A DNA stretch of 20,000 bases, from the IMG/VR virus record IMGVR_UViG_3300034815_000029. One strand, 5' to 3'. Below are positions 1-18,740 of the stretch, one piece after another. Within the stretch, counting starts at the first letter, position 1; every line of letters starts with the position of its first letter. A program made the translations under genes and the position numbers. The notes beneath the pieces are model-generated. The model did not search any database. It saw only the letters and a list, made by a program, of their open reading frames with translations, and was not told the DNA's origin. This DNA comes from an uncultured virus (IMG/VR IMGVR_UViG_3300034815_000029) (lineage: Duplodnaviria; Heunggongvirae; Uroviricota; Caudoviricetes).

Positions 1-20
1 ATCACCCGGACGAACTGCAT
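1..20 (-). CDS. Possible 5' end of a fourth nested +1-frame ORF (MQFVRV...) inside the giant gene
   Basis: The minus strand reads TATAGT-AGAGG-cgaca-ATG CAG TTC GTC CGG GTG, in the same +1 frame as the other nested ORFs. Only 6 codons are visible. Confidence 0.3.
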
Positions 21-3000
21 TGTCGCCTCTACTATACAGCGCCGTGCCTTGGTCGGTTTCCTTGGCTACGTTGCTGCCAGAATACTCACGCAGCGCATCG
101 CCGTAACCCATCTTCACCAGCTTGGCCTTTTGCGCCTCGATGCCGGCCGCCACGGCCGCCTTCTGTTCATCCGGTACGGCGGGGCCTTTCGCCATCAGTG
201 CGCGCTGGACCTTCTTGTGTTCCTCCCGTGCGTGTTCCAGATCAGCCGACTGCGCAAACGGTTGCTTGGATTGCTCGACCATCGCTGCCGCGTCCTGCTT
301 CGACTTCTCGATCTTGGCTTTGGAATCCTCCAGCGCAGCCGGCAGGCGGCCGGCATAGTTCACCAGTCGCTGAACGAATCCGCTGGCAGAGAACAATTCA
401 GAGCCCGACCAGGTGCCGACACCACCGGTGGGGGAATCCAGAACCATGATATTAGCGTGCGGAGCGGACAGCCTGAACGATATGCCGCGGTAAACAATCG
501 TCGCCGACTCGCGCAGCCCGGAGCGAACCAGCCCTGCAACACTTTCAATCTCCTTGATGGCCTTCTCTTTGTCGGCAAACTTCGAGGTGTTGACAGTGAT
601 TGGCGAGTAGCCATCCTTGTTCAGCGGGTGCTTCTTGATCTCGTCCAGCAGCTCCTGTAGCTCTGCCACATTCTTTGGACCGTAGGTATCGGCGTACTCC
701 TGCGCTGCCTTGGCCTTGCGTGCCATCGCCACCACTTCATCGGCGTGTCCGGCCTGCAATTGCTCCAGCCGGCGTACATCGTTGCGCAGTTTGGTTTCGT
801 CCAGGATCAGCGGGTCGCCGGAAGCGGCTGCCTTCATGTCGGCTGAATTGGCGGCCTCGCCCTCGATGTCGTCGATCTCGTTGATGGTGCCGTCGAAATT
901 GCGCAGTTGCTCGATGCCGCGAGCCTTGTGCTCCAGGATCTGCCAGCGCCGGGTGTCATAGGTCTGTTCGGTGGCATAGCGGCCGATGTAAATCTCGAAG
1001 CTGTCCGGGTTGCCGGCTTTGGCGGCGCGCTCGTAGAGCTTGTTGCCGCGGCGGATAATCCGCCCCTCGCGCTGCTCCAGATCAGACGGACGCCATGGCG
1101 CATCGATATGATGCAGGCCGACCAGCCGTTCCTGTACGTTGGTGCCGGCGCCCATCTTCGGGGTGGAGCCCAGCAGGAAGCGAATCGCGCCTTTGTTCAC
1201 CGCCTTGAACAGTTTGTCCTTGGCGGCCGGTGTTGAGTAGTCATGAATGAAAGCGATTTCGCGTTCCGGTATCCCCTGCTTAATCAGCTTGGCCTTGATG
1301 TCATCGTACACGGAAAACCTGGAAGAACCGGACATCCCGGCCACATCCTCGCGGCTGAAGAACTCGAAGCCTTCGGTTTCCACCTCGTTTTCATTGTTGT
1401 ACTCGTCGATCTGCTCCTGGCTGATTTCGCCAAGCCGCTCGCGGTTTTCTATCCAGGTCTGGCGCTGGTCGGTGTTGGCCAGGATTTCATTGGCTCGGTC
1501 GCGCGCCTCCTGCTTGGTGCGCATGTCGCCGAACAGCTTGCCGCCTGATACCGCATCGTAGGCATCGAAGCGCTTGGTATCCTTCTCGCCGCGCTGAACC
1601 ACGAAGTAAGGCAGATCCTCATGCCCTTCCAGGGTGTGCAGGGTGCCGCGCTTCATTTCCAGCGCCTGATACTCGTCGCGCACATACAGCCGGCGCGCAG
1701 ATGCGCCGAAGGTGGCACGGGCTGACAGGGGAATCGACATGTCACAGAACACCAGTTGCGCGCCCTTGTCGGCGTCCCACTGGTGATAGACCTTGACCAT
1801 TTTATCCACGGCCAGGTTGATCTTGCTGCCGGCGAAGTCTGGCGCGGACGGGTCAATCAGGCGATAATCCAGTCCCAGTTTGTTGGCTTCGCCCGTCAGT
1901 GACAGCGCATTGACCTTGCCCTTGGTGGCACGGGTCAGTTCGCGCAGTCTACCGAAGCGACCGAGGATAGATTCGGGGTCCACCGTCACCACCGGCGACA
2001 AGGCGCGCTCGACGATCTTCAGGCGCGCATCTTCTTCGGTGTCGAACTGGCCAATGTCGGTCAGGTATTCAATTCCTTCGCCGTTGATCTGCGTGGCCTT
2101 GGCGTGCCACTTGCCGGTATCCTTGACCTGCTCGATCTCCGGCAGCGCATTCGAGTTCAATGACAGGTCGAACTTGATGGCGCCGCTCTCGTCCTCTTCC
2201 GCGCGCGGTATGCCCATCCGTTCCGCCACCATCGGCGAACGCTTGGCCACGACGATCTCCGGCCGGCCGCCAACCAGTTTCGGCACCGGGAAACGCTTGC
2301 CCTGCGCTTCTTCCTGCGCCTTCAAGTCGTCCAGCGTCACGGTGTCGGCGAAGGTGTTATACATGTTCATCAAGCCGGTCAGGTTGGTGAACTTGGCGAA
2401 GCGGGTAGACTGGCGATAGCCGCTGCCTGACGGCGAGACTTCGTAGACGTTTTCCACGCTGCCGAACTGCTTGGCCCAGGCGTCGAACACATGCAAGCCC
2501 TCTTTCTTCATGGTCGGGTACTGCATGTAACGCTGCATGTTATACATCTCGACCAGCGAGTTGGATACCGGCGTGCCAGTGGCCGAGATAAACGGCGTCT
2601 TGTCGCCGAAGGTGTCGAACAGCCAGCGCGTCTTGACGAACAGGTCGAAGGCTTTGGCTGATCCGGCCGGGTTGCCCATGCCGGGGTTGCGGTCCATCGT
2701 CGAATGGTAGGTAAGGTTCTTGAATTCGTGCATTTCGTCGATGAACATGGCGTCTACGCCAAGCTCGTCGAACGTCACCATCTTGTCACGCTGCCCGATG
2801 TTGGCCAGCTTCTCCTTCATCTTGGCCTCCAGGTTCTTCCTGATCTTCTCCATGTCGCCGATGATGTTCCTGTCACCGCGGCCGCGCTTCATTTCCTCGA
2901 TGGCCTCGGTGATCTCGTCAAGTTGCTCCTGCAATACTGCGCGCTCGGTGGCTTCAGGCAGGCCGATTTTCTTCAGAGAGGAATGGCCGATCACTACGGC

Positions 3001-6000
3001 GTCCCAATCCCCGGTGATGATCTTGGCGAACATGCGCTCGCGGTTGCCCTTGCCGAAGTCCTCCGGCGTTGCCGCCAGGATATTCGAGCCGGGATACAGC
3101 CGGGTGAATTCGCTGCGCCATTGCAGGGTGAGGTGATTCGGCACCGCAAACAGCGGCTTGCGCGCAATCCCCATGCGGCGCATTTCCATCGCCAGTGCAG
3201 CCATTTCAAAGGTTTTGCCAGCCCCGACCACATGGTCATAGAGCACCTGGTAGGATTGCAGCCCACGCCACACCCCGTTTTTCTGGTGCTCCAGCAGGGT
3301 GATGGCCGGGTTCATGCCGGGGAAAGTCATGTGTCCGCCGTCGAACTTGCGCTCCACGATACGGTTCATCTTGTCGTTGAAGATCGAGGCCACACGGTCG
3401 GCGCGTGCCGGTTCGCTCCATAGCCATTTCTGCCATTCGGCCTTGATCGCATTCTGCTTCTCGCGCGCAGCCTCAGTTTCCTTCTCCAGCAGGGTCGTCG
3501 TCGTTGAGCCGTCGCCGTTCTTGATGATCTTCTTGACCACGGCGCCGCGGCCCAACATGCTCAGACTGAACAGTTCCTGCGCGCTCAGGTGCGAGGTGCC
3601 GAACTTGCCGGTATTCAGCGCCGCATCCGCGCCGCCATGATAGGAAATCAGCCATTGCCCGGTTGCCTTGACGTAGGAGGCCGTCGCTGTGCCGCCAGAT
3701 ATCTGCTGGATGAACTGCTCGTAAATCTCGGCTGGGACGAAGGCCGCCCCGATAGCTGCCGAAATTTCGCTGGGTTTCTTGTCTGCGGGTATGACCGGTT
3801 CCAGCGCCTCGACGTTGCGCTTGTACTTGGGATTGTCCAGGGCGGCCGCCTTGGCCTCGACCAGCTTGGTCTTGACATCGCCGGACAGGTATTCATCGGC
3901 GGTCACGATGCCGGATTGCGGGTCGTCAAACACCACGTCGCCCAGCTCTTCGATAATCTCGTCGGCTGTCTTGTGGTAAACCTCAGTCATGTAATCACGG
4001 TCCACCTTGCCGCGGTAGTTGAGCGAGGCCAGCAGCGCATCCTTGGCCGTGGTCACGGTGATGAAGTCCTGCGGCGGGAAGGCGACGCGCTGCCTGAAGA
4101 TATCCGCCTTGGTGGCGCTGGGCTCACGCAGCTCCAGATCTTCCTTGTCGGCAACGGCCTTGCTGATGCCCTTGTCGAAATCGAATTCCAGTCCTTGCAT
4201 CAACGGCGCTTCGGTATCATCGAAGAACAGTTTGCGGTTGACCTGGCTGTTGACATGGCCGAACTGCTTGAGGAAAGTGTCGTACTGGTTGTTGAGGCGC
4301 TTGCGGTTCAGCTCGATTTCGTCCGCCGTCGCATCAACCGATCGCTCCAGGCGCATCTGCTTGCGCATCGAATCACGCAGCCCGATCATGCCAGCCATGC
4401 GGTCCGTCGCCTTGCCATTGGGCGGGGTCCATGGGGTTGCGGTCTTGTTGCCCATCACATCCTCGCCGCGCTGCATGATCTTGCCGCTGGCATCCATATA
4501 GTAGGAGCCCGGCTTGATCCCGTCGGGGATCGCCATATCGACGATGGCCTTGTCGGATTTGCGGTCGATGGTCTTGAAGATATCCTTCGGCAGCGTTTTT
4601 ACCCATGCGTCGAGCTGGTCCTTCAGCTTGCCGCTGGCTTCGACGGTGTACTCATTGGCCGAATACATCGAACCAGCAGCAGATACCGTGCCAAGGATAT
4701 TGTCAGGGTAGGCAATCAGGAACTTGTTGACCTTGTGGGTCACGGCCTCGCCGGTCTTGGGGTTGTGGTTGACCTGGTCCGCCACATCCACCCAATGCGC
4801 CGCGCCGCTAGCAGGCTCTCCGCTGTGTTTCTTCTGGAAGATCACGATGTCGGTCACAACCTCGGTGCCGGCGTTTTCCTTGAAGGCGGTATTCGGCAGG
4901 CGTGCCACCCCGATCAGGTTGGCGCGCTCGGCGATCCACTTGCGCGCGCGGTTATCCTGCGCGTCGAGGAAGTTGTGCGATACCACGACCTGCATAATTC
5001 CACCGGGACGCAGCTTGTCGATGGCCTTGGCGAGAAAGTAGTTATGGATTGAGAAACCGGAATACTGGCTGCGGTCACTGTCCACGATAGGCGAGCTGCC
5101 GAAAGGCGGATTTCCGACCACGACATCGAAGTATTCAGCCGGGATATGGAAGTCCTCAAATCCGCTATGGGAGATTTTGGCTTTCGGGTACAGCGCCGTG
5201 ACTAGCCGGCTGGTCAGAGAATCCAGTTCGACGCCGTGCAGGTTGGACGCATTGCGCAGCGCGGCCGGCATCAGGCCGAAGAAGTTGCCCACACCGACGG
5301 AGGGCTCCAGGACGCGGCCGCCAGCAAACCCCATGCGCTCAAGGCTGGAATACATCGCCTTGACCACATCCGGGCTGGTGTAGTGCGCGTCCAGGGTGGA
5401 AGCGCGAGCTGCTTTGAATTCAGCGTCGGTCAGCAGTCCTTTAAGTTCTTCGTGCTGCTTGGCCCACTGCTTGTTGGCAGGATCGAAAGCGCCCTTGAGT
5501 GCGCCCCATCCGGCATATTTGGCGATCAGCTTACGTTCTTCTGGAGTGGCGACGCGGCTTTCTGCCTCCATCGCTTTGATGATCTTGATCGCGGCAATGT
5601 TGTCCCGGTACTTCTTGGTCAGTCCGCCCTTGCCGATTTCCTCGGCATCAATTACGAAGTCGTCGGTGGGCTCAGACTCAGGCCGTACTCCTGAATGATC
5701 TCGTGGCGCGCCAGGTGATTGTTCCCCGGATTGCTCAATACTTCCCGCTCCTGTTCCTCCTGGCTTTGCAGGGCTTCCAGATACTGCCCCGCTTCCACCA
5801 GCGCCTTCACGTCCTCCGGCCAGCCCAGCGCCCAGCGGTTGGCTATCTCGACTGCCAGTTGCGGCATCCGCTTGAGTTTCGCTTGCAGATCCTGCGGGTA
5901 CTGACTCGGTTTGTATAGGGTTTGCATGGTCGTCACCATTGGTTGGTCCTGATTTGAGTGTAGCAGAATCAACGTGTTCTGCAATGTTTGCTGCATCCCA

Positions 6001-9000
6001 TCCGCGATACCAGTCTTTTGGATTCTTACCAGATGGCGTAGTGAAGTAGGACGGAAGCACGCGGGGCTTGCCGGCTTTGAAGTCAGCTTTTCCGGCTGCG
6101 TAGTGGGTGCCTTCGTTCGTGGCTGCTGGCTTTTGACCATCCTGCGCCAGTTCCTCGACCGTCTTGTACTCATCCTTGCGGTTGCGGATTTCAATGCCGC
6201 CGCCAGGGATGATACCGACTGACTCACTCACCCTGAATCCGCTGTCCGTGTAGAAGCGCACACCGCGCGCGTCCTGATAGATTGCCTTGCCATCCGTGTT
6301 GCGACCGACGAAGGTATCCTTGTCCGGTTCATTCGCTGTTTGCGAACCGCGAACCTCTGGCCGGACCACATGCCGCATCCGGATGAACCAGCCGCCGTCT
6401 TTCTTGAACGTGCCGGTAGGGTCCAGCGTGCGCGCCTGCTTCTCGGTCAAGGTCTTGGCAATCACGCCTTTAATAGTCTTGCCGGCGCCGCCTTTGGTCA
6501 CATGCTCGACTTCTGGCAGATTGGTTTCCAGCTTGTCGCCGACGATCTTCTCGATGTTCCCGAAGTTGGTTTCGGTAACATCCGTCTTGGATGGCGTTGT
6601 ATCTTTAGTGAAATCATCAACCGGATTGGCCGCGGAATTAGCGCCATGCCAACCTGCGCTCCACTCATCCGCAGATTTTATTGTTTCACTTGCGCTTTTG
6701 CCTTTGATATAGGCGTCAATGTAATCCTTGTCCATGGCGGGTGAGGATAGCTTGCCAGCCTTGAATGCGGCGGCCCCCATTTCTCTGGCGGATAGCTTGG
6801 GTTTATCCTCTGCCTTTGGCTCCGGATTGATGGTTTTCGCGTAGGCGATAGCCGCCTCTTCCGTAGGGAATATCTTGGCCTCCAGCGTGAACTCGCCAGA
6901 ATCCGTGTCCTTCTGGACCACATTGAACCGGCCATTCGTGCCGGTGACAACGTGAGACTCCATGCCGGTATCTTCATTGCGGAAGATATGGAGCGGCCCG
7001 GCAGGTTTATCTGCTTGCAGACTATCAACATCGACCGACTCGACCGAAGCAGCACTATCCATTTCACTTGAGAAGGCGGCAGCGCGTGGATCGAATTTAA
7101 CCCCCAAAAACCAGCTTTTCAGGTAAGGCTTCACCGCGTCGCCCAAATCCTCGATCATCGCCTTGGCGTAGGCCGTGAAGGTGCGTGCGCCTTTTTCTAT
7201 ATGATACCCGGCCAAAGTAATCCCGGCCTGCATGACTTCCGGGTCCAGCCCGGTGTTGACCTGTCCGAGTTTCTTCTTCAGCAATGCGCGCGCAGCGGCG
7301 GCGGCATCTTCGGTGAATATGGTATTGGTAGATGGCTTGCTAGATTGCTGGCTTGCTGGCTCATTGCGTAGATCAAACCCGCCCTGGGTGTTGAACATGT
7401 CCACTTGATCTGACGTAACGCTCGGACCGGTCGCCTTGTTGGCTTCGCGCTCGGCCTTGTCTGCGGCGGCTTTGGCTTTTCTTTCTGCTGCGGCTACCTG
7501 GCTTTCGGTTTGTCCTTCGAGGCTGAACTCTTGTGATGGGCTATCGACTCCTGCGCTTTCTCCAGGTGCTTCGCCCGGATGATCTTCTCCGCGACTTTCC
7601 GCGCCGCGGGTGTCAGCTTCGCCATGTCCGCCTTCAGTTCCTGTAGCCGTTCCTTCATCGGTGCTTTCATTGAAATCTCCAAAAATTGCCGCTTCTTCTT
7701 CCTCGATGGTCTTGAATTGCTTGCTGGTAATCTTGTTCGCCGTCCGGATGTCCATGAACGGGATGTCGTCCAGCATGTCCTCGTCGGCTGCGACCACTTC
7801 CGATACCGCGGACTGGTCCGCTTCGGTCAGGTCGTCGTAGCCATGGCGCACGCCTTCATGCTCCTGCTCCGGCTCTTCGCCGCGCTGGTGCTGTGCATAC
7901 TTGCTGCCCTGATCCTTGTCATTATAGAGCTTGTCGAGCATGTCATTCATGTCGTGCTCATCCAGGTAGCCATGCTCATGCAGGGCGCCGGCCATGTCAT
8001 CGGGCTTCTTGCCGTTCTTATTGAACAGGAACACCGGCAATCCGCTGCCGACCTGGATCTTCATGTTGCCCGTCACGCCCAGCAGGGTGCGGATATCGTT
8101 GGCTTCCACGCTGTCGGTATGGAATCCGCCCAGCTTGCCGATGGCGGTAATCAGGCTGTCGCGGGTATTATCCACGATGCGCTTGGCCTTGACCTTGGGC
8201 TTGGGCTCTTCCTTCTCGACGCCGAACACCTTGACGCCGCGGCCGATTGCGCCGGCTGCCTTCAGGGCATCGCGGATCTGCGCATTGCTCGCTCCCGGCT
8301 TGACAGTGATGTCCTCGCCAGTCTCGAAATGCTGCGCCGGATACTTTCCGATGAAGATCGCGCCGTCCTTGACGGTGATCGGCTCGGCATTGTTCGGCAT
8401 GGTGCCGATAGACAAGACCTTGGGACCGGCTGGCACTTCGGCAACCGGTGCGGCTGCTTTCGGCGCTGGCGCTTTGGGCAGGTATTGACCTCCGGGCAAA
8501 GGTGCGGCAGGCGTTACTGTGTCATCCCGCACTCCATTTCCAACAGGTCCACCCGCTCCAGCGCTTCCAGCATCCGGTCCGGCAATTCCAGGTCGTCCAG
8601 TTCCGTCAGCGACAGGAATTCCATTGCCATCCACAGGAACGACATTTCCGCCAGTTCCTCCGGCGATATCGCTGCCTGCTGGTAGGCTTCCAGCATCCAG
8701 TCCTCCGTCTCCAGGTTCAGCAGTTGCGCCATTTTGTTCCCCTTGGTAAGCGAGCCCTTGAACATCGGATAGCAGCGCGTCGTCTGCGGTTGTAACGGGC
8801 GCCGCTTGAGGCAATACGCCCGACCGTGCAGCCAGGTTCGCCGCTCGGGTAAGGATGCCGCGCTCCGGCACGATCTGGCCGGCGGGGACTTGCGGCGGGT
8901 TTGGTGACATCGAGGCGATCACACCGGCATCGATGCCGCGCTTGGCAAAATTGGTGTTCCCGACTTCCTGATCGATAGCTTCGCCTATCTGCGCTCCCGC

Positions 9001-10323
9001 GCTCCGATCTTTGGTGGATTCTGTTGCCGCACCACCAATGACGGCAGACCCGCCGCCCGCGATTGCGCCGATCAGCGCGGCCTCTCCGGCCCCTTCCATG
9101 AGCGGCCTGCCGGTCAGGTAGTTCTGAATCATCTGCTGCGGCAATTCCTGCCAGGGGCCTTCTGATAATGCGCCGACGGCCCCCTTCTTGACGGCGTTGT
9201 CGAAAACGAACTTCCCGGCGTCATCAAACATCTTCAGGTCATTGAACAGGCCGATTTTGTTGGTGACGCCCAGCACGACCATGTTCGCCATGAAGCCTTT
9301 GTCTGCTTCGGCCATGGCCTGCTCATCGGTATAGCCTTTGCGCTTTAGTTCCTTGAAAACGCCATCGGCCTCTGCTGCCGCCTCAATTGCCGACATTGTT
9401 CCGGCACCAGCCCATTTCGCCATCACCGGAGAAACGATAGATAGCGCACTGGCTCCCTTCATTACGCCGATGCCGGGAACGTAAAACGACGCCATCGATC
9501 CGACAGCGTTTACCAGCTTGTCTGTGAAATTCCCCTCTGCCGGTTGCTTCCCTTGCGCCCATGCGTCCATGCTGTCGCCGATATCGGACAGCGATTGCGC
9601 GTTGGTTTTTTTGCCTAGGTAGGACAGCGATGCGCCCGTAGAGCCGACAACACCACCGGTAAAGTCGTTCCAGTATCTTTCGACGCCACGCTGCGCCTCG
9701 AAATCCAGTTTTGAATTTTGAGCAATACCCGGCATGTCCACGGCGCTCCCCATGGCCACATCGGACCGCGCCTTGTTGTCTGCTGCTTCCGGCGTCATCC
9801 CGCCTGTCGTGATCAGGTTGCGACGGCGATCTTCAACACGGGCAGACATCCCATCGAGGGCTGGAAGCTCTGCCGCCATGGCATCCTGCTTCTGCCATGC
9901 CGCTACCTGCGGCGCGGCGACCTGGCCCACATAATCAGGACGGCCCGCGATTTCTGCGCGCTTTTCTGGTGTGGCCGCTTCAAGGGTATGGGTGATACCA
10001 AGACGGGCTTCAGGTCGAACCGGGGCGCCAGCTGGGTAGGCGTTGCCTTTCTCTGCGGGCTTGCCGTGCATTACCGAGCCGGGAAGATTGATTGTTTCTG
10101 ATTTTGCTTCTGCGGGTTGGTCAGACAGGCCGACTGCATCCTTGAGATTGTCTATCGTGCCGCTTGCCGCTAGCTTGGCTGCAGATCCTACCTTGGACAG
10201 CAGGCTCTGCTTCGGAGCGAATTCTGGATACTCGCTCTGGATCGCGGTTTCGATATCCTTGTCCGCCATGCCATCAGGAAAATCAAGGTTATCGCCATTC
10301 GGCAAGACAATGCGTTGGGCCAT
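1..10323 (-). CDS. Giant DarB-like polyvalent internal virion protein (N6-adenine MTase + SF2/SNF2 helicase), >3441 aa, 3' end outside window
   Basis: Read codon by codon, there is no stop from ATG 10323 (MAQRIVLPNGDNLDFPDGM...) to base 1. GGAG Shine-Dalgarno lies 6 nt upstream. Motifs: VLEPSVGVGNFFG, VVGNPPF, DHVVGAGKT, FIDEMHEFKN, SATGTPVSN, QLVFCD, KMGAGTNVQ, PWRPSDLEQREGRIIR. It is absent from the ORF track, presumably because the stop lies outside the window. Confidence 0.95.
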   Translation of the reverse strand, partial: MAQRIVLPNGDNLDFPDGMADKDIETAIQSEYPEFAPKQSLLSKVGSAAKLAASGTIDNLKDAVGLSDQPAEAKSETINLPGSVMHGKPAEKGNAYPAGAPVRPEARLGITHTLEAATPEKRAEIAGRPDYVGQVAAPQVAAWQKQDAMAAELPALDGMSARVEDRRRNLITTGGMTPEAADNKARSDVAMGSAVDMPGIAQNSKLDFEAQRGVERYWNDFTGGVVGSTGASLSYLGKKTNAQSLSDIGDSMDAWAQGKQPAEGNFTDKLVNAVGSMASFYVPGIGVMKGASALSIVSPVMAKWAGAGTMSAIEAAAEADGVFKELKRKGYTDEQAMAEADKGFMANMVVLGVTNKIGLFNDLKMFDDAGKFVFDNAVKKGAVGALSEGPWQELPQQMIQNYLTGRPLMEGAGEAALIGAIAGGGSAVIGGAATESTKDRSAGAQIGEAIDQEVGNTNFAKRGIDAGVIASMSPNPPQVPAGQIVPERGILTRAANLAARSGVLPQAAPVTTADDALLSDVQGLAYQGEQNGATAEPGDGGLDAGSLPAGSDIAGGTGGNVVPVDGNGIPVADGTGRPGIAGPDAGSAGAGGPVGNGVRDDTVTPAAPLPGGQYLPKAPAPKAAAPVAEVPAGPKVLSIGTMPNNAEPITVKDGAIFIGKYPAQHFETGEDITVKPGASNAQIRDALKAAGAIGRGVKVFGVEKEEPKPKVKAKRIVDNTRDSLITAIGKLGGFHTDSVEANDIRTLLGVTGNMKIQVGSGLPVFLFNKNGKKPDDMAGALHEHGYLDEHDMNDMLDKLYNDKDQGSKYAQHQRGEEPEQEHEGVRHGYDDLTEADQSAVSEVVAADEDMLDDIPFMDIRTANKITSKQFKTIEEEEAAIFGDFNESTDEGTATGTEGGHGEADTRGAESRGEDHPGEAPGESAGVDSPSQEFSLEGQTESQVAAAERKAKAAADKAEREANKATGPSVTSDQVDMFNTQGGFDLRNEPASQQSSKPSTNTIFTEDAAAAARALLKKKLGQVNTGLDPEVMQAGITLAGYHIEKGARTFTAYAKAMIEDLGDAVKPYLKSWFLGVKFDPRAAAFSSEMDSAASVESVDVDSLQADKPAGPLHIFRNEDTGMESHVVTGTNGRFNVVQKDTDSGEFTLEAKIFPTEEAAIAYAKTINPEPKAEDKPKLSAREMGAAAFKAGKLSSPAMDKDYIDAYIKGKSASETIKSADEWSAGWHGANSAANPVDDFTKDTTPSKTDVTETNFGNIEKIVGDKLETNLPEVEHVTKGGAGKTIKGVIAKTLTEKQARTLDPTGTFKKDGGWFIRMRHVVRPEVRGSQTANEPDKDTFVGRNTDGKAIYQDARGVRFYTDSGFRVSESVGIIPGGGIEIRNRKDEYKTVEELAQDGQKPAATNEGTHYAAGKADFKAGKPRVLPSYFTTPSGKNPKDWYRGWDAANIAEHVDSATLKSGPTNGDDHANPIQTESVPAGSASETQADAATGSRDSQPLGAGLAGGREGAGGSGAVSGSPAKPGGTGAGSIEQSGEQSPGAPRDHSGVRPESEPTDDFVIDAEEIGKGGLTKKYRDNIAAIKIIKAMEAESRVATPEERKLIAKYAGWGALKGAFDPANKQWAKQHEELKGLLTDAEFKAARASTLDAHYTSPDVVKAMYSSLERMGFAGGRVLEPSVGVGNFFGLMPAALRNASNLHGVELDSLTSRLVTALYPKAKISHSGFEDFHIPAEYFDVVVGNPPFGSSPIVDSDRSQYSGFSIHNYFLAKAIDKLRPGGIMQVVVSHNFLDAQDNRARKWIAERANLIGVARLPNTAFKENAGTEVVTDIVIFQKKHSGEPASGAAHWVDVADQVNHNPKTGEAVTHKVNKFLIAYPDNILGTVSAAGSMYSANEYTVEASGKLKDQLDAWVKTLPKDIFKTIDRKSDKAIVDMAIPDGIKPGSYYMDASGKIMQRGEDVMGNKTATPWTPPNGKATDRMAGMIGLRDSMRKQMRLERSVDATADEIELNRKRLNNQYDTFLKQFGHVNSQVNRKLFFDDTEAPLMQGLEFDFDKGISKAVADKEDLELREPSATKADIFRQRVAFPPQDFITVTTAKDALLASLNYRGKVDRDYMTEVYHKTADEIIEELGDVVFDDPQSGIVTADEYLSGDVKTKLVEAKAAALDNPKYKRNVEALEPVIPADKKPSEISAAIGAAFVPAEIYEQFIQQISGGTATASYVKATGQWLISYHGGADAALNTGKFGTSHLSAQELFSLSMLGRGAVVKKIIKNGDGSTTTTLLEKETEAAREKQNAIKAEWQKWLWSEPARADRVASIFNDKMNRIVERKFDGGHMTFPGMNPAITLLEHQKNGVWRGLQSYQVLYDHVVGAGKTFEMAALAMEMRRMGIARKPLFAVPNHLTLQWRSEFTRLYPGSNILAATPEDFGKGNRERMFAKIITGDWDAVVIGHSSLKKIGLPEATERAVLQEQLDEITEAIEEMKRGRGDRNIIGDMEKIRKNLEAKMKEKLANIGQRDKMVTFDELGVDAMFIDEMHEFKNLTYHSTMDRNPGMGNPAGSAKAFDLFVKTRWLFDTFGDKTPFISATGTPVSNSLVEMYNMQRYMQYPTMKKEGLHVFDAWAKQFGSVENVYEVSPSGSGYRQSTRFAKFTNLTGLMNMYNTFADTVTLDDLKAQEEAQGKRFPVPKLVGGRPEIVVAKRSPMVAERMGIPRAEEDESGAIKFDLSLNSNALPEIEQVKDTGKWHAKATQINGEGIEYLTDIGQFDTEEDARLKIVERALSPVVTVDPESILGRFGRLRELTRATKGKVNALSLTGEANKLGLDYRLIDPSAPDFAGSKINLAVDKMVKVYHQWDADKGAQLVFCDMSIPLSARATFGASARRLYVRDEYQALEMKRGTLHTLEGHEDLPYFVVQRGEKDTKRFDAYDAVSGGKLFGDMRTKQEARDRANEILANTDQRQTWIENRERLGEISQEQIDEYNNENEVETEGFEFFSREDVAGMSGSSRFSVYDDIKAKLIKQGIPEREIAFIHDYSTPAAKDKLFKAVNKGAIRFLLGSTPKMGAGTNVQERLVGLHHIDAPWRPSDLEQREGRIIRRGNKLYERAAKAGNPDSFEIYIGRYATEQTYDTRRWQILEHKARGIEQLRNFDGTINEIDDIEGEAANSADMKAAASGDPLILDETKLRNDVRRLEQLQAGHADEVVAMARKAKAAQEYADTYGPKNVAELQELLDEIKKHPLNKDGYSPITVNTSKFADKEKAIKEIESVAGLVRSGLRESATIVYRGISFRLSAPHANIMVLDSPTGGVGTWSGSELFSASGFVQRLVNYAGRLPAALEDSKAKIEKSKQDAAAMVEQSKQPFAQSADLEHAREEHKKVQRALMAKGPAVPDEQKAAVAAGIEAQKAKLVKMGYGDALREYSGSNVAKETDQGTALYSRGDNAVRPGD
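780..3330 (-). other. SF2 (SNF2-like) helicase region of the giant protein
   Basis: Walker A GAGKT (~3211-3225), motif II DEMH (2728-2739), motif III ATGTP (~2570-2583), motifs V/VI GAGTNVQ and EQREGRIIRRGN (~1040-1155), and C-terminal MKAAASGDPLILDE (~800-840). Boundaries are approximate. Confidence 0.9.
4690..5620 (-). other. N6-adenine DNA methyltransferase domain of the giant protein
   Basis: AHYTS, SAM-binding LEPSVGVGNF (~5281-5310), GVELD, catalytic NPPF (5101-5112), IHNYFLAKAIDKLRPGG and RLPNTAFKENAGTEVVTDIVIFQK. Boundaries are approximate. Confidence 0.9.
5652..5939 (-). CDS. Nested (+1 frame) 95-aa hypothetical protein inside the giant gene, just upstream of the MTase domain
   Basis: MVTTMQTLYKPSQYPQDLQAKLKRMPQLAVEIANRWALGWPEDVKALVEAGQYLEALQSQEEQEREVL... 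looks like a folded helical protein. AGGA lies 7 nt before ATG 5939 (alternative ATG at 5927). The host frame here is a Gly/Ser/Ala low-complexity linker. Confidence 0.72.
   Translation of the reverse strand: MVTTMQTLYKPSQYPQDLQAKLKRMPQLAVEIANRWALGWPEDVKALVEAGQYLEALQSQEEQEREVLSNPGNNHLARHEIIQEYGLSLSPPTTS
5957..5984 (-). promoter_or_regulatory. Putative internal sigma70 promoter for the nested 5652-5939 ORF
   Basis: TTGCAG (5984-5979), 16-nt spacer, then TACACT (5962-5957) preceded by TGc (extended -10 pattern), a few nt upstream of the nested ORF's SD/ATG. Confidence 0.4.
7494..7670 (-). CDS. Nested (+1 frame) 58-aa basic hypothetical protein inside the giant gene
   Basis: GGAG 6 nt before ATG 7670. 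MKAPMKERLQELKADMAKLTPAARKVAEKIIRAKHLEKAQ... has an amphipathic helical pattern. The host frame is a low-complexity linker (ESTDEGTATGTEGGHGEADTRGAESRGEDHPGE). Confidence 0.55.
   Translation of the reverse strand: MKAPMKERLQELKADMAKLTPAARKVAEKIIRAKHLEKAQESIAHHKSSASKDKPKAR
8514..8732 (-). CDS. Nested (+1 frame) 72-aa highly acidic hypothetical protein inside the giant gene
   Basis: AAGGGGA about 5 nt before ATG 8732. MAQLLNLETEDWMLEAYQQAAISPEELAEMSFLWMAMEF... has 18 D/E, 2 R and 0 K. The host frame is Gly-rich with atypical GGA codons. Confidence 0.65.
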   Translation of the reverse strand: MAQLLNLETEDWMLEAYQQAAISPEELAEMSFLWMAMEFLSLTELDDLELPDRMLEALERVDLLEMECGMTQ

Positions 10324-10333
10324 GCGGGACTCC

Positions 10334-10366
10334 AAAAGAAAATGGCGAGGTATCTACCCCGCCATT
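10334..10366 (-). terminator. Intrinsic terminator-like hairpin directly upstream of the giant gene's RBS
   Basis: RNA AAUGGCGGGGU-AGAU-ACCUCGCCAUU (11-bp stem including one G-U) followed by UUCUUUU and then the GGAG RBS. Confidence 0.6.
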
Positions 10367-17917: not shown

Positions 17918-18243
17918 ACTTGCCCCTTAACCAGATTGAAGAACAGGGCGGCACGCTCAGTCAGCACGCTCTCGTCGTTTTTCGTTTCTGCGCGCGCGGT
18001 CACGTAGTCGGCCAGCGCCGGCACAATCTCTGCATTCAGCGGGAAAGTGTCGTCCAGCGCCAGATTCTCAGTGGTTGACAGCGTGCCAAACAGCCCGAAG
18101 AACAGATCAGGGCGCTTGTTGCGCAGCAGCAGAATGCCGTCTTGGGCGAACACCAGCAGGGCCGCATCGGTGAAGCGCACCTTGTCGTCGTCGTTGATCG
18201 GGGTGCGTCCACGGTCAACGATATTTTGCATGGTGTAGCTCAT
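17914..18243 (-). CDS. Small phage adaptor-like protein (109 aa)
   Basis: IVDRGRTPINDDDKVRFTDAALL...KRPDLF and ALADYVTARA resemble the helical part of phage adaptor proteins; ATGA overlaps on both sides. Confidence 0.6.
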   Translation of the reverse strand: MSYTMQNIVDRGRTPINDDDKVRFTDAALLVFAQDGILLLRNKRPDLFFGLFGTLSTTENLALDDTFPLNAEIVPALADYVTARAETKNDESVLTERAALFFNLVKGQV

Positions 18244-18740
18244 GGCGCCCGCCCGTTCTCGAAGTCAATCAAGGTGTTCAGCCTGGTTGCGCAGGTATCG
18301 TAATATTGGCCGGCTTCGACGGCCCAAGTCGCAATGTCGGCGTCAGAGGCGGCAAGTGTTCTGGAACTTTCTGGCGTAGATTCCCCGGCGCCTCCACCTG
18401 TGGTGGTGCCGTTGGGCATGTCTCGCACCCCGTTAATGAGATCGACAGCAGCAGGGCCAAGGCAAGGCTGGCCAGTAGTGACTTTGGGAACATACTTGAT
18501 CCTTTCGATGGTCTTGATCTGGATGGTGGATTCAGCGGTAGCGAGCTGGGCAGACAGGGCATTCCCGCGTGCGACTTCCTCTTGGTGCTTCTTGGCCGCC
18601 GCGCGCTCCGCGATCATATTCTTGGCGTCGCGTCTGTCATTGGTTGAGCTCGTCCCGTACCACACCCCTGAAGCGAACAGAGACAGCGCCAGCAGCAGGG
18701 CGCCCAGCATTCGGTACGGCAGCGGAATCATGGTCAACAT
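18240..18740 (-). CDS. Rz: Inner-membrane spanin (Rz-like, 166 aa)
   Basis: N-terminal TM helix (MLGALLLALSLFASGVWYG) followed by a coiled coil; immediately after the endolysin; contains an embedded lipoprotein gene. Confidence 0.8.
   Translation of the reverse strand: MLTMIPLPYRMLGALLLALSLFASGVWYGTSSTNDRRDAKNMIAERAAAKKHQEEVARGNALSAQLATAESTIQIKTIERIKYVPKVTTGQPCLGPAAVDLINGVRDMPNGTTTGGGAGESTPESSRTLAASDADIATWAVEAGQYYDTCATRLNTLIDFENGRAP
18278..18493 (-). CDS. Rz1: Outer-membrane spanin lipoprotein (Rz1-like, 71 aa) embedded in the +1 frame of Rz
   Basis: AAGGA RBS 6 nt before ATG 18493; signal peptide MFPKSLLASLALALLLSISLTG-C (lipobox LTGC); Pro-rich mature part. Confidence 0.82.
   Translation of the reverse strand: MFPKSLLASLALALLLSISLTGCETCPTAPPQVEAPGNLRQKVPEHLPPLTPTLRLGPSKPANITIPAQPG

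What the first reader, a model, noticed from the sequence alone, without database searches (positions are those of the whole stretch)
5652..8732. A series of small genes overprinted in the +1 frame of the linkers of a giant DarB-like virion protein gene
Seen in sequence: three same-strand ORFs (5652-5939, 7494-7670, 8514-8732) lie wholly inside the stop-free giant ORF. All are in the same +1 frame, and each starts with ATG 5-7 nt after an SD motif (AGGA, GGAG, AAGGGGA). Where they lie, the host frame becomes Gly/Ala/Ser/Glu low-complexity linker and loses its codon bias. By hand count, Gly codons in 8521-8732 are 17 GGA versus 4 GGC, against 9 GGC versus 1 GGA in helicase stretch 2401-2760. 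The +1 products, in contrast, look like folded helical proteins. Inference: selection acts on the +1 frame, so the gene works as a 'gene containing an operon'. The small proteins could be inhibitors or chaperones of adjacent injected domains, or independent anti-defence factors that travel with each module. Standard annotation would miss them.
Basis: partly seen in the sequence, partly recalled or inferred. Interest (0 to 1): 0.9.

Follow-up and report, generated by a model that had tools for sequence, protein, structure and literature searches.

The report
Small genes nested in giant phage gene
A 3,445-codon phage gene for an injected anti-restriction protein carries at least two, probably three, small independent genes in a shifted reading frame inside its flexible linkers, and standard annotation misses them.

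Summary
The giant DarB-like ORF lies on the minus strand (10335..1).

Openness and length alone are no evidence. The Gly/Ala/Asp/Glu-rich host sequence leaves the +1 frame open in 43-83% of synonymous shuffles.

**ORF1 (5652-5939) is a real gene.**
- It belongs to a ~91-aa family with 69 database proteins.
- It is nested in the same frame in 46 of 57 fetched loci and outside any giant ORF in 11.
- pN/pS is 0.55 in its frame against 1.39 in the host frame.
- The fold model is confident (pLDDT 89).

**ORF2 (7494-7670) is supported.** Against a ~90%-identical metagenomic contig, 8 differences change 1 residue in the +1 frame and 7 in the host frame. The pattern flips at the ORF border.

**ORF3 (8514-8732/8765) has intrinsic evidence only.** It has the strongest gene-like codon usage (z=5.7) but no homologues.

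Functions are unknown. This scan noted nested genes in DarB-like genes of other genomes. Five literature searches found no paper on it.

The parts
1..10323 (-). Host gene: giant DarB-like polyvalent virion protein, 3441 codons from ATG 10323 (ORF open from TTG 10335). Its 3' end lies beyond the window.
   Evidence: No stop in 3445 codons. phrog_10089 'DarB-like antirestriction', 1894.6 bits. Pfam Eco57I/N6_Mtase at aa 1644-1860; ResIII (21.0 bits, below its 22.5-bit cutoff) and Helicase_C at aa 2360-3097. Neighbouring genes are virion, tail-fibre and lysis genes.
5652..5939 (-). Nested gene ORF1, +1 frame, 95 aa from ATG 5939 (91 aa from the family-conserved ATG 5927), stop at 5652-5654. It is a five-helix small protein with invariant IANRW.LGWP and near-invariant HLARHE.
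   Evidence: 69 database homologues. 46 of 57 loci nested in the same frame and 11 outside a giant ORF. pN/pS 0.55 against 1.39 for the host frame. AlphaFold pLDDT 89.2. Codon score +0.25 against host -0.09.
5947..5950 (-). SD-like AGGA, 7 nt before ATG 5939.
   Evidence: A core SD lies upstream of the conserved start in 24 of 37 distinct nested loci, against an 11.4% background.
7494..7670 (-). Nested gene ORF2, +1 frame, 58 aa, basic (pI 10.3).
   Evidence: Against the ~90% relative in run X7: 8 nt differences, 6 of them at +1-frame third positions, giving 1 aa change in the +1 frame and 7 in the host frame. L058 keeps a 24-residue core at 12/24 in the +1 frame against 3/24 in the host frame. 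Codon z=3.4.
7677..7680 (-). SD-like GGAG, 6 nt before ATG 7670.
   Evidence: GGAG is untouched by the X7 differences listed at 7673, 7675 and 7676. L058 has GGAG 9 nt before its ATG.
8514..8732 (-). Candidate nested gene ORF3, +1 frame, 72 aa (83 aa from ATG 8765), acidic (pI 4.05), 11% Met.
   Evidence: Highest +1 codon score of the gene (0.48 against host 0.01; z=5.7). Host GC3 is 0.27-0.42 here. No homologue found. Single-sequence fold is poor (pLDDT 57.7).
8738..8744 (-). SD-like AAGGGGA, 5 nt before ATG 8732.
5632..5982 (-). Host-frame low-complexity linker 1 (host aa 1452-1568), read over ORF1.
   Evidence: GC3 0.37, Gly codons 11 GGA against 5 GGC. Host-frame aa identity among relatives is 36%, no better than the third frame at 38%.
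7450..7731 (-). Host-frame low-complexity linker 2 (host aa 869-962), read over ORF2.
   Evidence: GC3 0.44, Gly codons 8 GGA against 4 GGC.
8446..8805 (-). Host-frame low-complexity linker 3 (host aa 511-630), read over ORF3.
   Evidence: GC3 0.27-0.42.
1..5651 (-). Conserved methylase-helicase core of the host protein. It begins at the codon next to the ORF1 stop.
   Evidence: In relatives the conserved host sequence (IDAEEIGKGGL..KYRDN..) starts at, or up to about 60 aa after, the small gene's stop. 74% identity over aa 1562-1900 in related loci.

Best explanation
The giant DarB-like (polyvalent, virion-injected methylase-helicase) gene contains independently translated small genes in its +1 frame. 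Each sits in a stretch that the host frame reads as a disordered Gly/Ala/Ser/Glu linker.

Shown:
- ORF1 encodes a member of a conserved ~91-aa five-helix protein family that is under purifying selection in the +1 frame. The host frame over the same DNA is only kept free of stops.
- ORF2 shows the same frame-specific selection in a close relative.

Inferred:
- ORF3 is a third such gene, from its codon signature alone.
- All three are translated by internal initiation at their own SD-ATG on the giant gene's late mRNA; no promoter-like site lies inside the region.
- The overlap is cheap. A high-GC3 small gene puts G or C at the host frame's first codon position, so the host frame rarely meets a stop and reads Gly/Ala/Glu/Asp/Pro-rich linker. 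This points to the small gene as the older frame and the linker as the overprinted one.
- The most likely role of the ORF1 protein is as an accessory partner of the methylase-helicase module, because it lies directly 5' of that module in phage-like loci and on plasmids. It could hold the module inactive or help load it in the producing cell. This is a guess at about 35%. An independent conflict or regulatory protein is about equally likely.
For: ORF1:
- tblastn hit in cultured Pseudomonas phage 8P (66% identity, E 3e-31), again in the +1 frame of its giant gene, with the same ATG and stop position.
- 69 of 70 candidate proteins at E<=0.01, mostly 89-95 aa. 133 cluster representatives at E<=0.001.
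- The alignment has invariant IANRW.LGWP.
- 46 of 57 loci are nested in the +1 frame of ORFs of 610 to over 3800 codons. In 11 loci the host-like frame is short or closed.
- Nucleotide diversity at small-frame positions 1/2/3 is 0.333/0.286/0.476 in 36 distinct nested sequences.
- pN/pS is 0.545 in the small frame, 1.39 in the host frame and 1.02 in the third frame. Amino-acid identity is 57%, 36% and 38%.
- A core SD lies upstream of the conserved start in 24 of 37 distinct loci, against an 11.4% background.
- AlphaFold2 on 32 sequences gives pLDDT 89.2 and pTM 0.79.
- PGAP annotates homologues as separate CDSs just 5' of N-6 methylase genes on two plasmids.

ORF2:
-. Inside 7504-7670 there are 8 differences, 6 of them at host position 1, giving 1 change in the +1 frame and 7 in the host frame.
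- Outside (7672-8028) there are 32 differences, 20 at host position 3, giving 10 host changes and 25 +1 changes.
- L058 keeps the core at 12/24 in the +1 frame against 3/24 in the host frame, with nucleotides identical at positions 1/2/3 in 14/18/9 of 24 codons.

All three:
- The codon scan flags 10 of 170 windows, all on these ORFs, with z=5.0, 3.4 and 5.7.
- In four cultured phages the same kind of scan mainly marks one nested +1 ORF just upstream of the methylase. That ORF accounts for 3 of 3 flagged windows in 8P, 5 of 6 in JC1, 4 of 4 in Skulduggery and 4 of 7 in PEp14.
Against: - No expression data. No RNA run holds the region, and no proteomics or ribosome profiling is available here.
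- Openness and length are expected by chance given the host protein.
- A control +1 ORF inside the conserved helicase (834-1103) also gives tblastn hits in 38 alignments, so frame-shifted similarity alone proves nothing.
- ORF2 rests on one close relative (8 differences) and one distant one (E 0.008 in a small local database). No other homologue was found.
- ORF3 has no homologue in any search. L058 has stops in the +1 frame at the equivalent place. The X7 differences in ORF3 were not shown by the tool. It is 11% Met, and its single-sequence model is poor.
- One control ORF reached z=2.9 in the resampling test, so z of about 3 (ORF2) is not exceptional.
- The pN/pS alignment was guided by the small-frame protein, which favours that frame slightly, though the core has almost no gaps.
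- The function is not established. No fold match was found.
Confidence: 0.8

Rival explanations
1. Chance ORFs. The +1 frames are open and look helical only because the host linkers use GNN codons (Gly/Ala/Asp/Glu/Val), which force NNG codons and exclude TAA and TGA in the +1 frame. No +1 protein is made.
For: The +1 spans stay open in 66%, 83% and 43% of 2000 synonymous shuffles. The longest +1 run is matched in 18% of shuffles. Antisense frames hold open runs of up to 514 codons. ORF3 and ORF2 have no database homologues.
Against: This cannot explain several results for ORF1: conservation of its protein down to 44-55% identity with pN/pS 0.55 against 1.39 in the host frame, its copies outside giant ORFs, or its confident fold. 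For ORF2, 6 of 8 differences are silent in the +1 frame while 7 host residues change. For all three, host GC3 collapses only in these linkers and not in the Gly/Ala-rich control stretch, and the +1 codon scores are at z=3.4-5.7 above host-synonymous resampling.
Confidence: 0.03
2. Fossil frames. The linkers were recruited from former genes read in another frame when modules fused. The +1 signature is a remnant, and one or more of the ORFs (ORF3 above all) is no longer translated.
For: ORF3 has a strong codon signature but no homologue, and the colinear relative L058 has +1 stops at that place. The N-terminal part of these giant genes is mosaic: few of the 57 loci match aa 1-1465.
Against: A fossil would lose its codon signature and its ATG and SD quickly. 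ORF1 has kept start, stop and sequence across deep divergence while nested. ORF2 shows ongoing +1-frame constraint at 90% identity. ORF3's signature is the strongest of the three, which argues for recent or current constraint.
Confidence: 0.12
3. Programmed +1 (or -2) ribosomal frameshifting. The +1 sequences are alternative C-termini of truncated forms of the giant protein rather than separate genes.
For: The ORFs are on the same strand in a fixed +1 register. The +1 frame upstream of ORF1 is open to 6227 in this window.
Against: The family start (M-Q-x-L-Y) is an ATG, or GTG in one locus seen in two collections (L030/L049), in all loci where the start lies on the locus, and it is usually preceded by an SD. 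In 8P the +1 frame is closed 14 codons upstream of that ATG. Copies outside giant ORFs and plasmid copies begin at the same Met. I did not search for a slippery motif.
Confidence: 0.05

Closest known systems
Embedded spanin genes Rz1 within Rz (phage lambda type)
   Same: A small gene lies wholly inside a larger same-strand gene in the +1 frame, with its own start. This window has such a pair: the Rz-like gene at 18240-18740 holds a +1 ORF with a signal-peptide-like start, a lipobox-like LTGC and a Pro-rich tail (PHROG spanin hits).
   Different: In Rz/Rz1 both frames encode structured partners of one complex. Here the host frame is a featureless linker of a 3,445-codon virion protein, up to three unrelated small genes are nested in one host gene, and none is a lipoprotein.
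TnpV-like nested genes in DarB-like genes of cultured phages (PEp14, JC1, SopranoGao, Itty13, Atu_ph08, POI1126, VvAW1, PBC5, Mwe-JY07)
   Same: They occupy the same place (directly 5' of the methylase core), the same +1 frame and a similar size (102-132 aa), and have an SD-like motif upstream. The host frame is open in all except Itty13, where the record annotates a gene on the opposite strand. Profile-profile alignment to the ORF1 family is colinear (W..P..K.L...G.L..AL ... PP), with E=0.0019.
   Different: They are not demonstrably the same family. 0 of 81 ORF1-family members hit Pfam TnpV at E<=0.5. The phage proteins hit it only below threshold (20.7 and 14.8 bits against a cutoff of 27). 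ORF1-family tblastn finds only phage 8P among 50,697 phage records.
Polyvalent proteins of phages and conjugative elements (Iyer, Burroughs, Anand, de Souza, Aravind 2017, PMC5512222; passages read)
   Same: The host gene matches the paper's description: a multidomain early-injected protein with a DarB-type adenine methylase fused to an SF2 helicase, preceded by a domain the paper calls LPD36.
   Different: A term search of the paper's main text gave 0 occurrences of 'overlapping', 'frameshift' or 'linker', and 'nested' is used only for a hairpin. No nested genes are described there.
Overprinted genes of small phages (phiX174-type; recalled, not searched here)
   Same: Two proteins are read from one DNA stretch in different frames, one frame being compositionally odd.
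   Different: Those phages are under extreme genome-size pressure. Here the phage is about 60 kb in its cultured relatives, and the overlap is confined to linkers of one giant gene.

Membership tests
Same-strand nested (embedded) overlapping gene | The ORF lies wholly inside a longer ORF, on the same strand, in a different frame. | tested here: met
   All three ORFs are at offset +1 inside the stop-free 3445-codon ORF.
Same-strand nested (embedded) overlapping gene | Purifying selection acts on the nested frame. | tested here: met
   ORF1: pN/pS 0.545 against 1.39 for the host frame, 36 sequences. ORF2: 1 aa change in the +1 frame against 7 in the host frame for 8 nt differences. ORF3: not testable with the data shown.
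Same-strand nested (embedded) overlapping gene | Own translation start with a ribosome-binding site. | tested here: met
   ATG with AGGA, GGAG or AAGGGGA 5-7 nt upstream. SD enriched upstream of the ORF1-family start: 24 of 37 against 11.4%. This is sequence evidence only.
Same-strand nested (embedded) overlapping gene | The nested protein is actually made. | not testable with these tools
   No RNA holder was listed and there is no proteomics or ribosome profiling.
Same-strand nested (embedded) overlapping gene | The host frame is functional over the overlap. | tested here: met
   The host frame is open across the small gene in 46 of 57 loci. Given the ORF1 protein and usual codon usage, the host frame would be open in only 2.1% of resamplings. 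The host sequence itself is not conserved: 36% identity, against 38% for the third frame.
TnpV (Pfam PF14198) | Match to the Pfam model at its gathering score (27 bits). | tested here: not met
   ORF1 has no TnpV hit at E<=5. 0 of 81 family members hit at E<=0.5.
TnpV (Pfam PF14198) | Remote homology by profile-profile comparison with the TnpV-like nested genes of other DarB-like genes. | tested here: inconclusive
   hhalign A1 against A3 gives E=0.21. A4 (81 sequences) against A3 gives E=0.0019, probability 14%, 53 colinear columns.
DarB-like / polyvalent virion protein (host gene) | N6-adenine methylase fused to an SF2/SNF2 helicase in one giant protein. | tested here: met
   Pfam Eco57I (37.6 bits), N6_Mtase (33.6) and Helicase_C (25.0) are above their cutoffs; ResIII (21.0) is just below its cutoff. 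phrog_10089, 1894.6 bits.
DarB-like / polyvalent virion protein (host gene) | Lies in the virion/late gene module of a phage. | tested here: met
   Neighbouring genes hit PHROGs for virion structural protein, internal virion protein, tail fibre, spanin, endolysin and holin.
DarB-like / polyvalent virion protein (host gene) | Packaged in the virion and protects injected DNA from restriction. | not testable with these tools
   Needs virion proteomics and restriction assays.
Programmed ribosomal frameshift product | A slippery site and stimulator with no independent start; a junction peptide. | not tested
   No slippery-site search was run. The conserved ATG and SD, and the stop 14 codons upstream of the start in 8P, argue against it.

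The most novel reading that the evidence does not exclude
Giant polyvalent virion-protein genes are systematically 'genes that contain operons'. Each inter-module linker hides an independently translated small gene that is the dedicated partner (inhibitor, chaperone or regulator) of a module. The ORF1-family protein would be the specific keeper of the DarB-type methylase-helicase. The copies outside giant genes, in integrase/primase islands and beside a Type III restriction enzyme, would then be host or satellite weapons that neutralise incoming DarB-like proteins, a form of anti-anti-restriction.
Probability: 0.12. Interest if true: 0.9.

Novelty: new variant of a known kind. Interest (0 to 1): 0.74.

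Why it matters
Giant DarB-like or polyvalent genes are annotated as single ORFs in hundreds of phages, plasmids and prophages. If their linkers carry conserved, separately translated small genes, three things follow.
- Phage gene counts and 'linker' annotations are wrong in a systematic way.
- A widespread small-protein family with no Pfam match and no name beyond 'hypothetical protein' (133 clusters at 50% identity) gains a genomic address next to an anti-restriction enzyme.
- A simple codon-periodicity scan can find such genes. It marked the nested gene upstream of the methylase in each of four cultured phages, with only four other flagged windows.

It also gives a clean natural case for how overprinting arises. 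A high-GC3 gene leaves the neighbouring frame nearly stop-free, so a read-through fusion yields a ready-made flexible linker. Phage 8P and its Pseudomonas stutzeri host offer a cultured system in which to test the ORF1 family.

Tried and rejected
- **Whole-genome relatives.** No genome is held for this window.
- **Homologues of ORF3 and ORF2.** None was found in the protein collection at near lengths, in IMG/VR, in GenBank phages (best E 3 and 0.2) or in plasmids. The protein atlas gave no usable hit for ORF3. Local tblastn of ORF2 and ORF3 against the first 57 loci also found nothing significant.
- **Host segment aa 610-880 in IMG/VR.** No relative was found.
- **Fold of ORF1.** Foldseek against PDB and BFVD gave nothing at E<=0.001. 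VIA-align wide gave a best Z of 4.9, with weak rows including sigma-factor, KorA/KorB and NLR helical domains, too low to use. No fold was assigned.
- **Fold of ORF3.** The single-sequence model has pLDDT 57.7 and is uninformative.
- **Complex prediction.** I tried to fold the ORF1 protein with host core aa 1562-2000.
- **Pfam, PHROGs and PADLOC on the three products.** There were no hits apart from a chance-level DUF4164 match for ORF2 at E 0.019.
- **Neighbours of ORF1-family copies outside giant ORFs.** The adjacent 235-476-aa proteins have no family, apart from a faint phrog_26400 'DNA ejection protein' N-terminal match at E about 3e-4. They show no similarity to the giant protein.
- **Sequencing runs.** No RNA holder was listed. 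Runs X2-X4 gave mostly identical contigs and so no variation.
- **Promoters.** There were 0 sigma-70-like sites in 5400-9100.
- **Tandem repeats.** None lies in the ORFs.
- **Long profile hits.** P0142, P0173 and P0197 from the profile search are repeat proteins, not fusions.
- **Literature.** Five searches and a term search of PMC5512222 found no report of nested genes in DarB-like or polyvalent genes. Subscription journals and supplements were not searched.

Full report
**1. What is there**

The window is the late/virion region of a phage or prophage from an uncultured source; a sediment metagenome run holds it in full. All genes run on the minus strand. They include a holin, endolysin, Rz-like spanin, virion and tail-fibre proteins and an internal virion protein (PHROGs).

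Downstream of these lies a stop-free ORF from 10335 (TTG; first ATG 10323) to position 1, where it leaves the window. It has 3445 codons. It matches phrog_10089 'DarB-like antirestriction' at 1894.6 bits. It carries an Eco57I/N6_Mtase domain at aa 1644-1860, with ResIII (just below its Pfam cutoff) and Helicase_C matches at aa 2360-3097. This is a 'polyvalent protein' in the sense of Iyer et al. 2017 (PMC5512222; passages read).

**2.

The host frame over them is Gly/Ala/Ser/Glu/Asp/Pro-rich.

**3. What openness does and does not show**

- The +1 frame has 96 stops in 3445 codons. Its longest open runs are 191, 146, 134, 120 and 110 codons. An antisense frame is open for 514 codons.
- In 2000 shuffles that keep the host protein and permute synonymous codons, a run of 191 or more appears in 18%.
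- The three ORF spans stay open in 66% (ORF1, 91 codons), 83% (ORF2) and 43% (ORF3) of shuffles.
- The cause is mechanical. Host codons of the GNN type put G at the third position of +1 codons. Only TAG can then stop that frame, and Leu/Glu/Met/Gln/Lys codons abound.

So 'open' and 'helical-looking' are by-products and no evidence.

**4. The codon signature is real and specific**

I trained a codon model on the 11 other genes of the window (2855 codons) and scored 60-codon windows in the three sense frames.

- The +1 frame beats the host frame in 10 of 170 windows. All 10 lie at host codons 501-620, 881-940 and 1421-1560, which are ORF3, ORF2 and ORF1.
- The +1 scores are 0.48 (ORF3), 0.25 (ORF1) and 0.13 (ORF2). 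The host-frame mean is 0.35 +/- 0.15. Five other +1 ORFs of 81-117 codons score -0.16 to -0.38.
- I resampled host-synonymous codons with the usual usage. The observed +1 scores lie at z=5.0 (ORF1), 3.4 (ORF2) and 5.7 (ORF3). Three controls lie at z=2.9, 1.4 and 1.4.
- Host GC3 is 0.27-0.44 in the three linkers. A Gly/Ala-rich host stretch without a +1 ORF (aa 407-457) has GC3 0.65, no GGA preference and three +1 stops.
- Scans self-trained on each giant gene's host-frame codons, run on cultured phages, mainly flag one nested +1 ORF just upstream of the methylase. That ORF accounts for 3 of 221 windows in 8P, 5 of 6 flagged in JC1, 4 of 4 in Skulduggery and 4 of 7 in PEp14.

**5. ORF1 is a real gene**

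*Homologues and context*
- tblastn finds it in Pseudomonas phage 8P (66% identity, E 3e-31), again in the +1 frame of that phage's 5145-codon 'structural protein'. The Met start and stop position are the same, and the frame is closed 14 codons upstream of the Met.
- The protein collection holds 69 relatives at E<=0.01, mostly 89-95 aa. A profile search finds 133 cluster representatives.
- The alignment shows a protein-like pattern with invariant I-A-N-R-W-x-x-G-W-P.
- I fetched 33 viral and 23 genomic loci. Counting 8P, 46 of 57 loci have the small ORF in the +1 frame of an ORF of 610 to over 3800 codons. In 11 loci the host-like frame is short or closed.
- In L044, L045 and L048 those 11 copies lie in islands with a P4-type integrase and a primase-helicase (PriCT_2/AAA_25 or Toprim/DUF927). 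In L042 the copy lies just downstream of a Type III restriction enzyme. In most of them a 235-476-aa protein of no known family comes directly before the small gene.
- Two of the 11 (L037, L056) may be decayed giant-gene fragments.

*Selection*
- In 36 distinct nested sequences, nucleotide diversity at small-frame positions 1/2/3 is 0.333/0.286/0.476. The host frame's third position is therefore the least variable and its first position the most variable.
- pN/pS is 0.545 in the small frame, 1.39 in the host frame and 1.02 in the third frame. Amino-acid identity is 57%, 36% and 38%.
- The host frame therefore keeps only its openness. That openness is not free: given the ORF1 protein and normal codon usage, the host frame would be open in 2.1% of resamplings.

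*Control*
- A +1 ORF inside the conserved helicase (834-1103) also collects tblastn hits. It is the frame comparison and the non-nested copies that carry the argument, not the hits.

*Start and fold*
- A core SD (AGGA, GGAG or GAGG) lies 4-17 nt before the conserved start in 24 of 37 distinct loci, against 11.4% of positions in the same genes (the loci are related, so the P value is not a probability).
- In six of the rest, and in the window, the printed upstream sequence shows an in-frame ATG 4 codons upstream with an AGGA, AGGAG or GGAG before it.
- AlphaFold2 with 32 sequences gives five helices, pLDDT 89.2 and pTM 0.79.
- No structural relative was found.

**6. Position of ORF1**

Its stop abuts the start of the conserved host core (IDAEEIGKGGL..KYRDN..), which begins 0 to about 60 residues after the stop in 31 relatives. 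That core is 74% identical across loci, whereas the N-terminal 1465 residues of the host are mosaic and rarely alignable.

On two MOBP plasmids (Cupriavidus metallidurans, Acidovorax carolinensis) PGAP annotates the homologue as its own CDS, directly 5' of an 'N-6 DNA methylase' gene. The methylase frame is nevertheless open upstream across it.

Other cultured phages have a different small gene at the same spot and in the same frame. They are PEp14, Pavtok, Stean, SopranoGao, LASTA, SJM3, Itty13, Atu_ph08, POI1126, VvAW1, PBC5 and Mwe-JY07 (21 records; 7 further records fetched).

- This gene is 102-132 aa, with an MNLNNW... start.
- It hits Pfam TnpV below threshold, at E 4e-4 and 20.7 bits against a cutoff of 27.
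- Profile-profile comparison with the ORF1 family is colinear but weak: E 0.21 with 32 sequences and 0.0019 with 81.
- None of 81 ORF1-family members hits TnpV.

I leave homology open.

**7. ORF2 is supported**

One run (X7, groundwater) holds a 27.7-kb contig that matches 7504-8997 with 150 differences and 8 gaps. The first 40 differences, up to 8028, were listed.

| Span | nt differences | Position pattern | aa changes, +1 frame | aa changes, host frame |
|---|---|---|---|---|
| Inside ORF2 (7504-7670) | 8 | 6 at host position 1 (= +1 position 3) | 1 (A3K) | 7 (S>K, D>H, R>G, G>S, E>Q, P>A, S>P) |
| Just outside (7672-8028) | 32 | 20 at host position 3 | 25 | 10 |

The constrained frame switches at the ORF2 border.

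- The GGAG before the start is untouched by the listed differences.
- A second, distant colinear relative (L058; 44% identity over host aa 312-1180) has a 42-codon +1 ORF at the same place, with GGAG upstream.
- L058 shares a core (A-K-[LM]-[TS]-P-A-A-R-x-V-A-E-[KR]-[IM]-I) at 12 of 24 residues, against 3 of 24 in the host frame. Nucleotides are identical at positions 1/2/3 in 14/18/9 of 24 codons.

The sample is small: one close and one distant relative.

**8. ORF3 is open**

It has the strongest intrinsic signature (section 4). Against it:
- No homologue was found in any collection.
- L058 has +1 stops at the equivalent place.
- The X7 differences in ORF3 were cut from the table.
- The single-sequence fold is poor.
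- It is very acidic (pI 4.05) and 11% Met, and both traits can follow from GGA/GAT host codons.

By analogy with ORF1 and ORF2, which share the signature and are supported by comparison, I put it at about 55-60% for a currently coding gene. Otherwise it is a fossil frame.

**9. How it most likely works**

No promoter-like site lies in 5400-9100. The small genes are therefore presumably translated by internal initiation on the giant gene's late mRNA.

The overlap costs little. A small gene with G or C at most third positions gives the host frame G or C at its first position. That avoids stops, which begin with T, and spells Gly/Ala/Glu/Asp/Pro/Arg/Gln, a ready-made flexible linker. The pattern fits the small frame being the older one, with the linker overprinted when modules were fused.

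In both relatives the mosaic junction lies at the 3' end of ORF2. X7 similarity ends at 7504, and L058 near-identity begins at about host aa 940.

Function is not known. The constant position 5' of the methylase-helicase, in phage-like loci and on plasmids, suggests a partner of that module. The copies in integrase/primase islands without a methylase suggest a role that does not need it in cis. The complex prediction that could have tested binding was not available.

**10. Novelty**

Nested same-strand genes are known. Rz/Rz1 is the classic case, and this window has such a pair at 18240-18740.

What I could not find in print (searches; term search of PMC5512222):
- Conserved small genes hidden in the linkers of giant polyvalent/DarB-like genes.
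- More than one such gene per host gene.
- The ORF1 family as one of them.

This scan has noted nested +1 genes in DarB-like genes of other genomes.

Noticed in passing
window 18240-18740 (-), inner ORF about 18278-18493 (-): The Rz-like spanin gene holds a +1-frame ORF that starts MFPKSLL..., has a lipobox-like LTGC and a Pro-rich tail. This is a classic embedded Rz1-type o-spanin, so the phage uses +1 nesting elsewhere too.
   Followed up: partly
window 1-10335 (-), +1 frame: The +1 frame of the whole giant gene has fewer stops (96) than synonymous shuffles give (119.1 +/- 5.2). This depletion is not confined to the three ORFs.
   Followed up: no
window about 7494-7504; L058 host aa about 940: The mosaic junctions of two relatives fall at the 3' end of ORF2. 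The X7 contig stops resembling the window at 7504, and L058 turns from about 30-40% identity to near-identity just after the ORF2 stop. The linkers are recombination joints.
   Followed up: partly
L079 (JC1) 7696-7875; L081 (PEp14) 7680-7919: The codon scan flags a second +1-favoured window at host codons about 820-900 in JC1 and PEp14, upstream of their TnpV-like nested gene. These may be further nested genes.
   Followed up: no
L042 402-4565: An ORF1-family copy outside any giant ORF lies at the end of a same-strand row: a Type III restriction enzyme (PADLOC REase_III, 1536 bits), a 121-aa ORF and a 236-aa ORF. In L046 the copy is followed by a T5orf172 / PDC-S57-like protein.
   Followed up: partly
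P0142 (2809 aa): A giant protein carries many repeats of a ~65-aa unit that contains '..R..LGWP..', which the ORF1-family profile matches six times. The relation to the IANRW.LGWP motif is unclear.
   Followed up: no
L010/L036 6750-6752: In one relative the giant frame carries a single in-frame stop about 440 nt after the small gene and then goes on for 1840 codons. It could be a split gene, read-through or an assembly error.
   Followed up: no
window 3508-5049 (+) and 7537-8682 (+): Antisense frames of the giant gene are open for 514 and 382 codons. This is typical of GC-rich coding DNA and a reminder that ORF length means little here.
   Followed up: no
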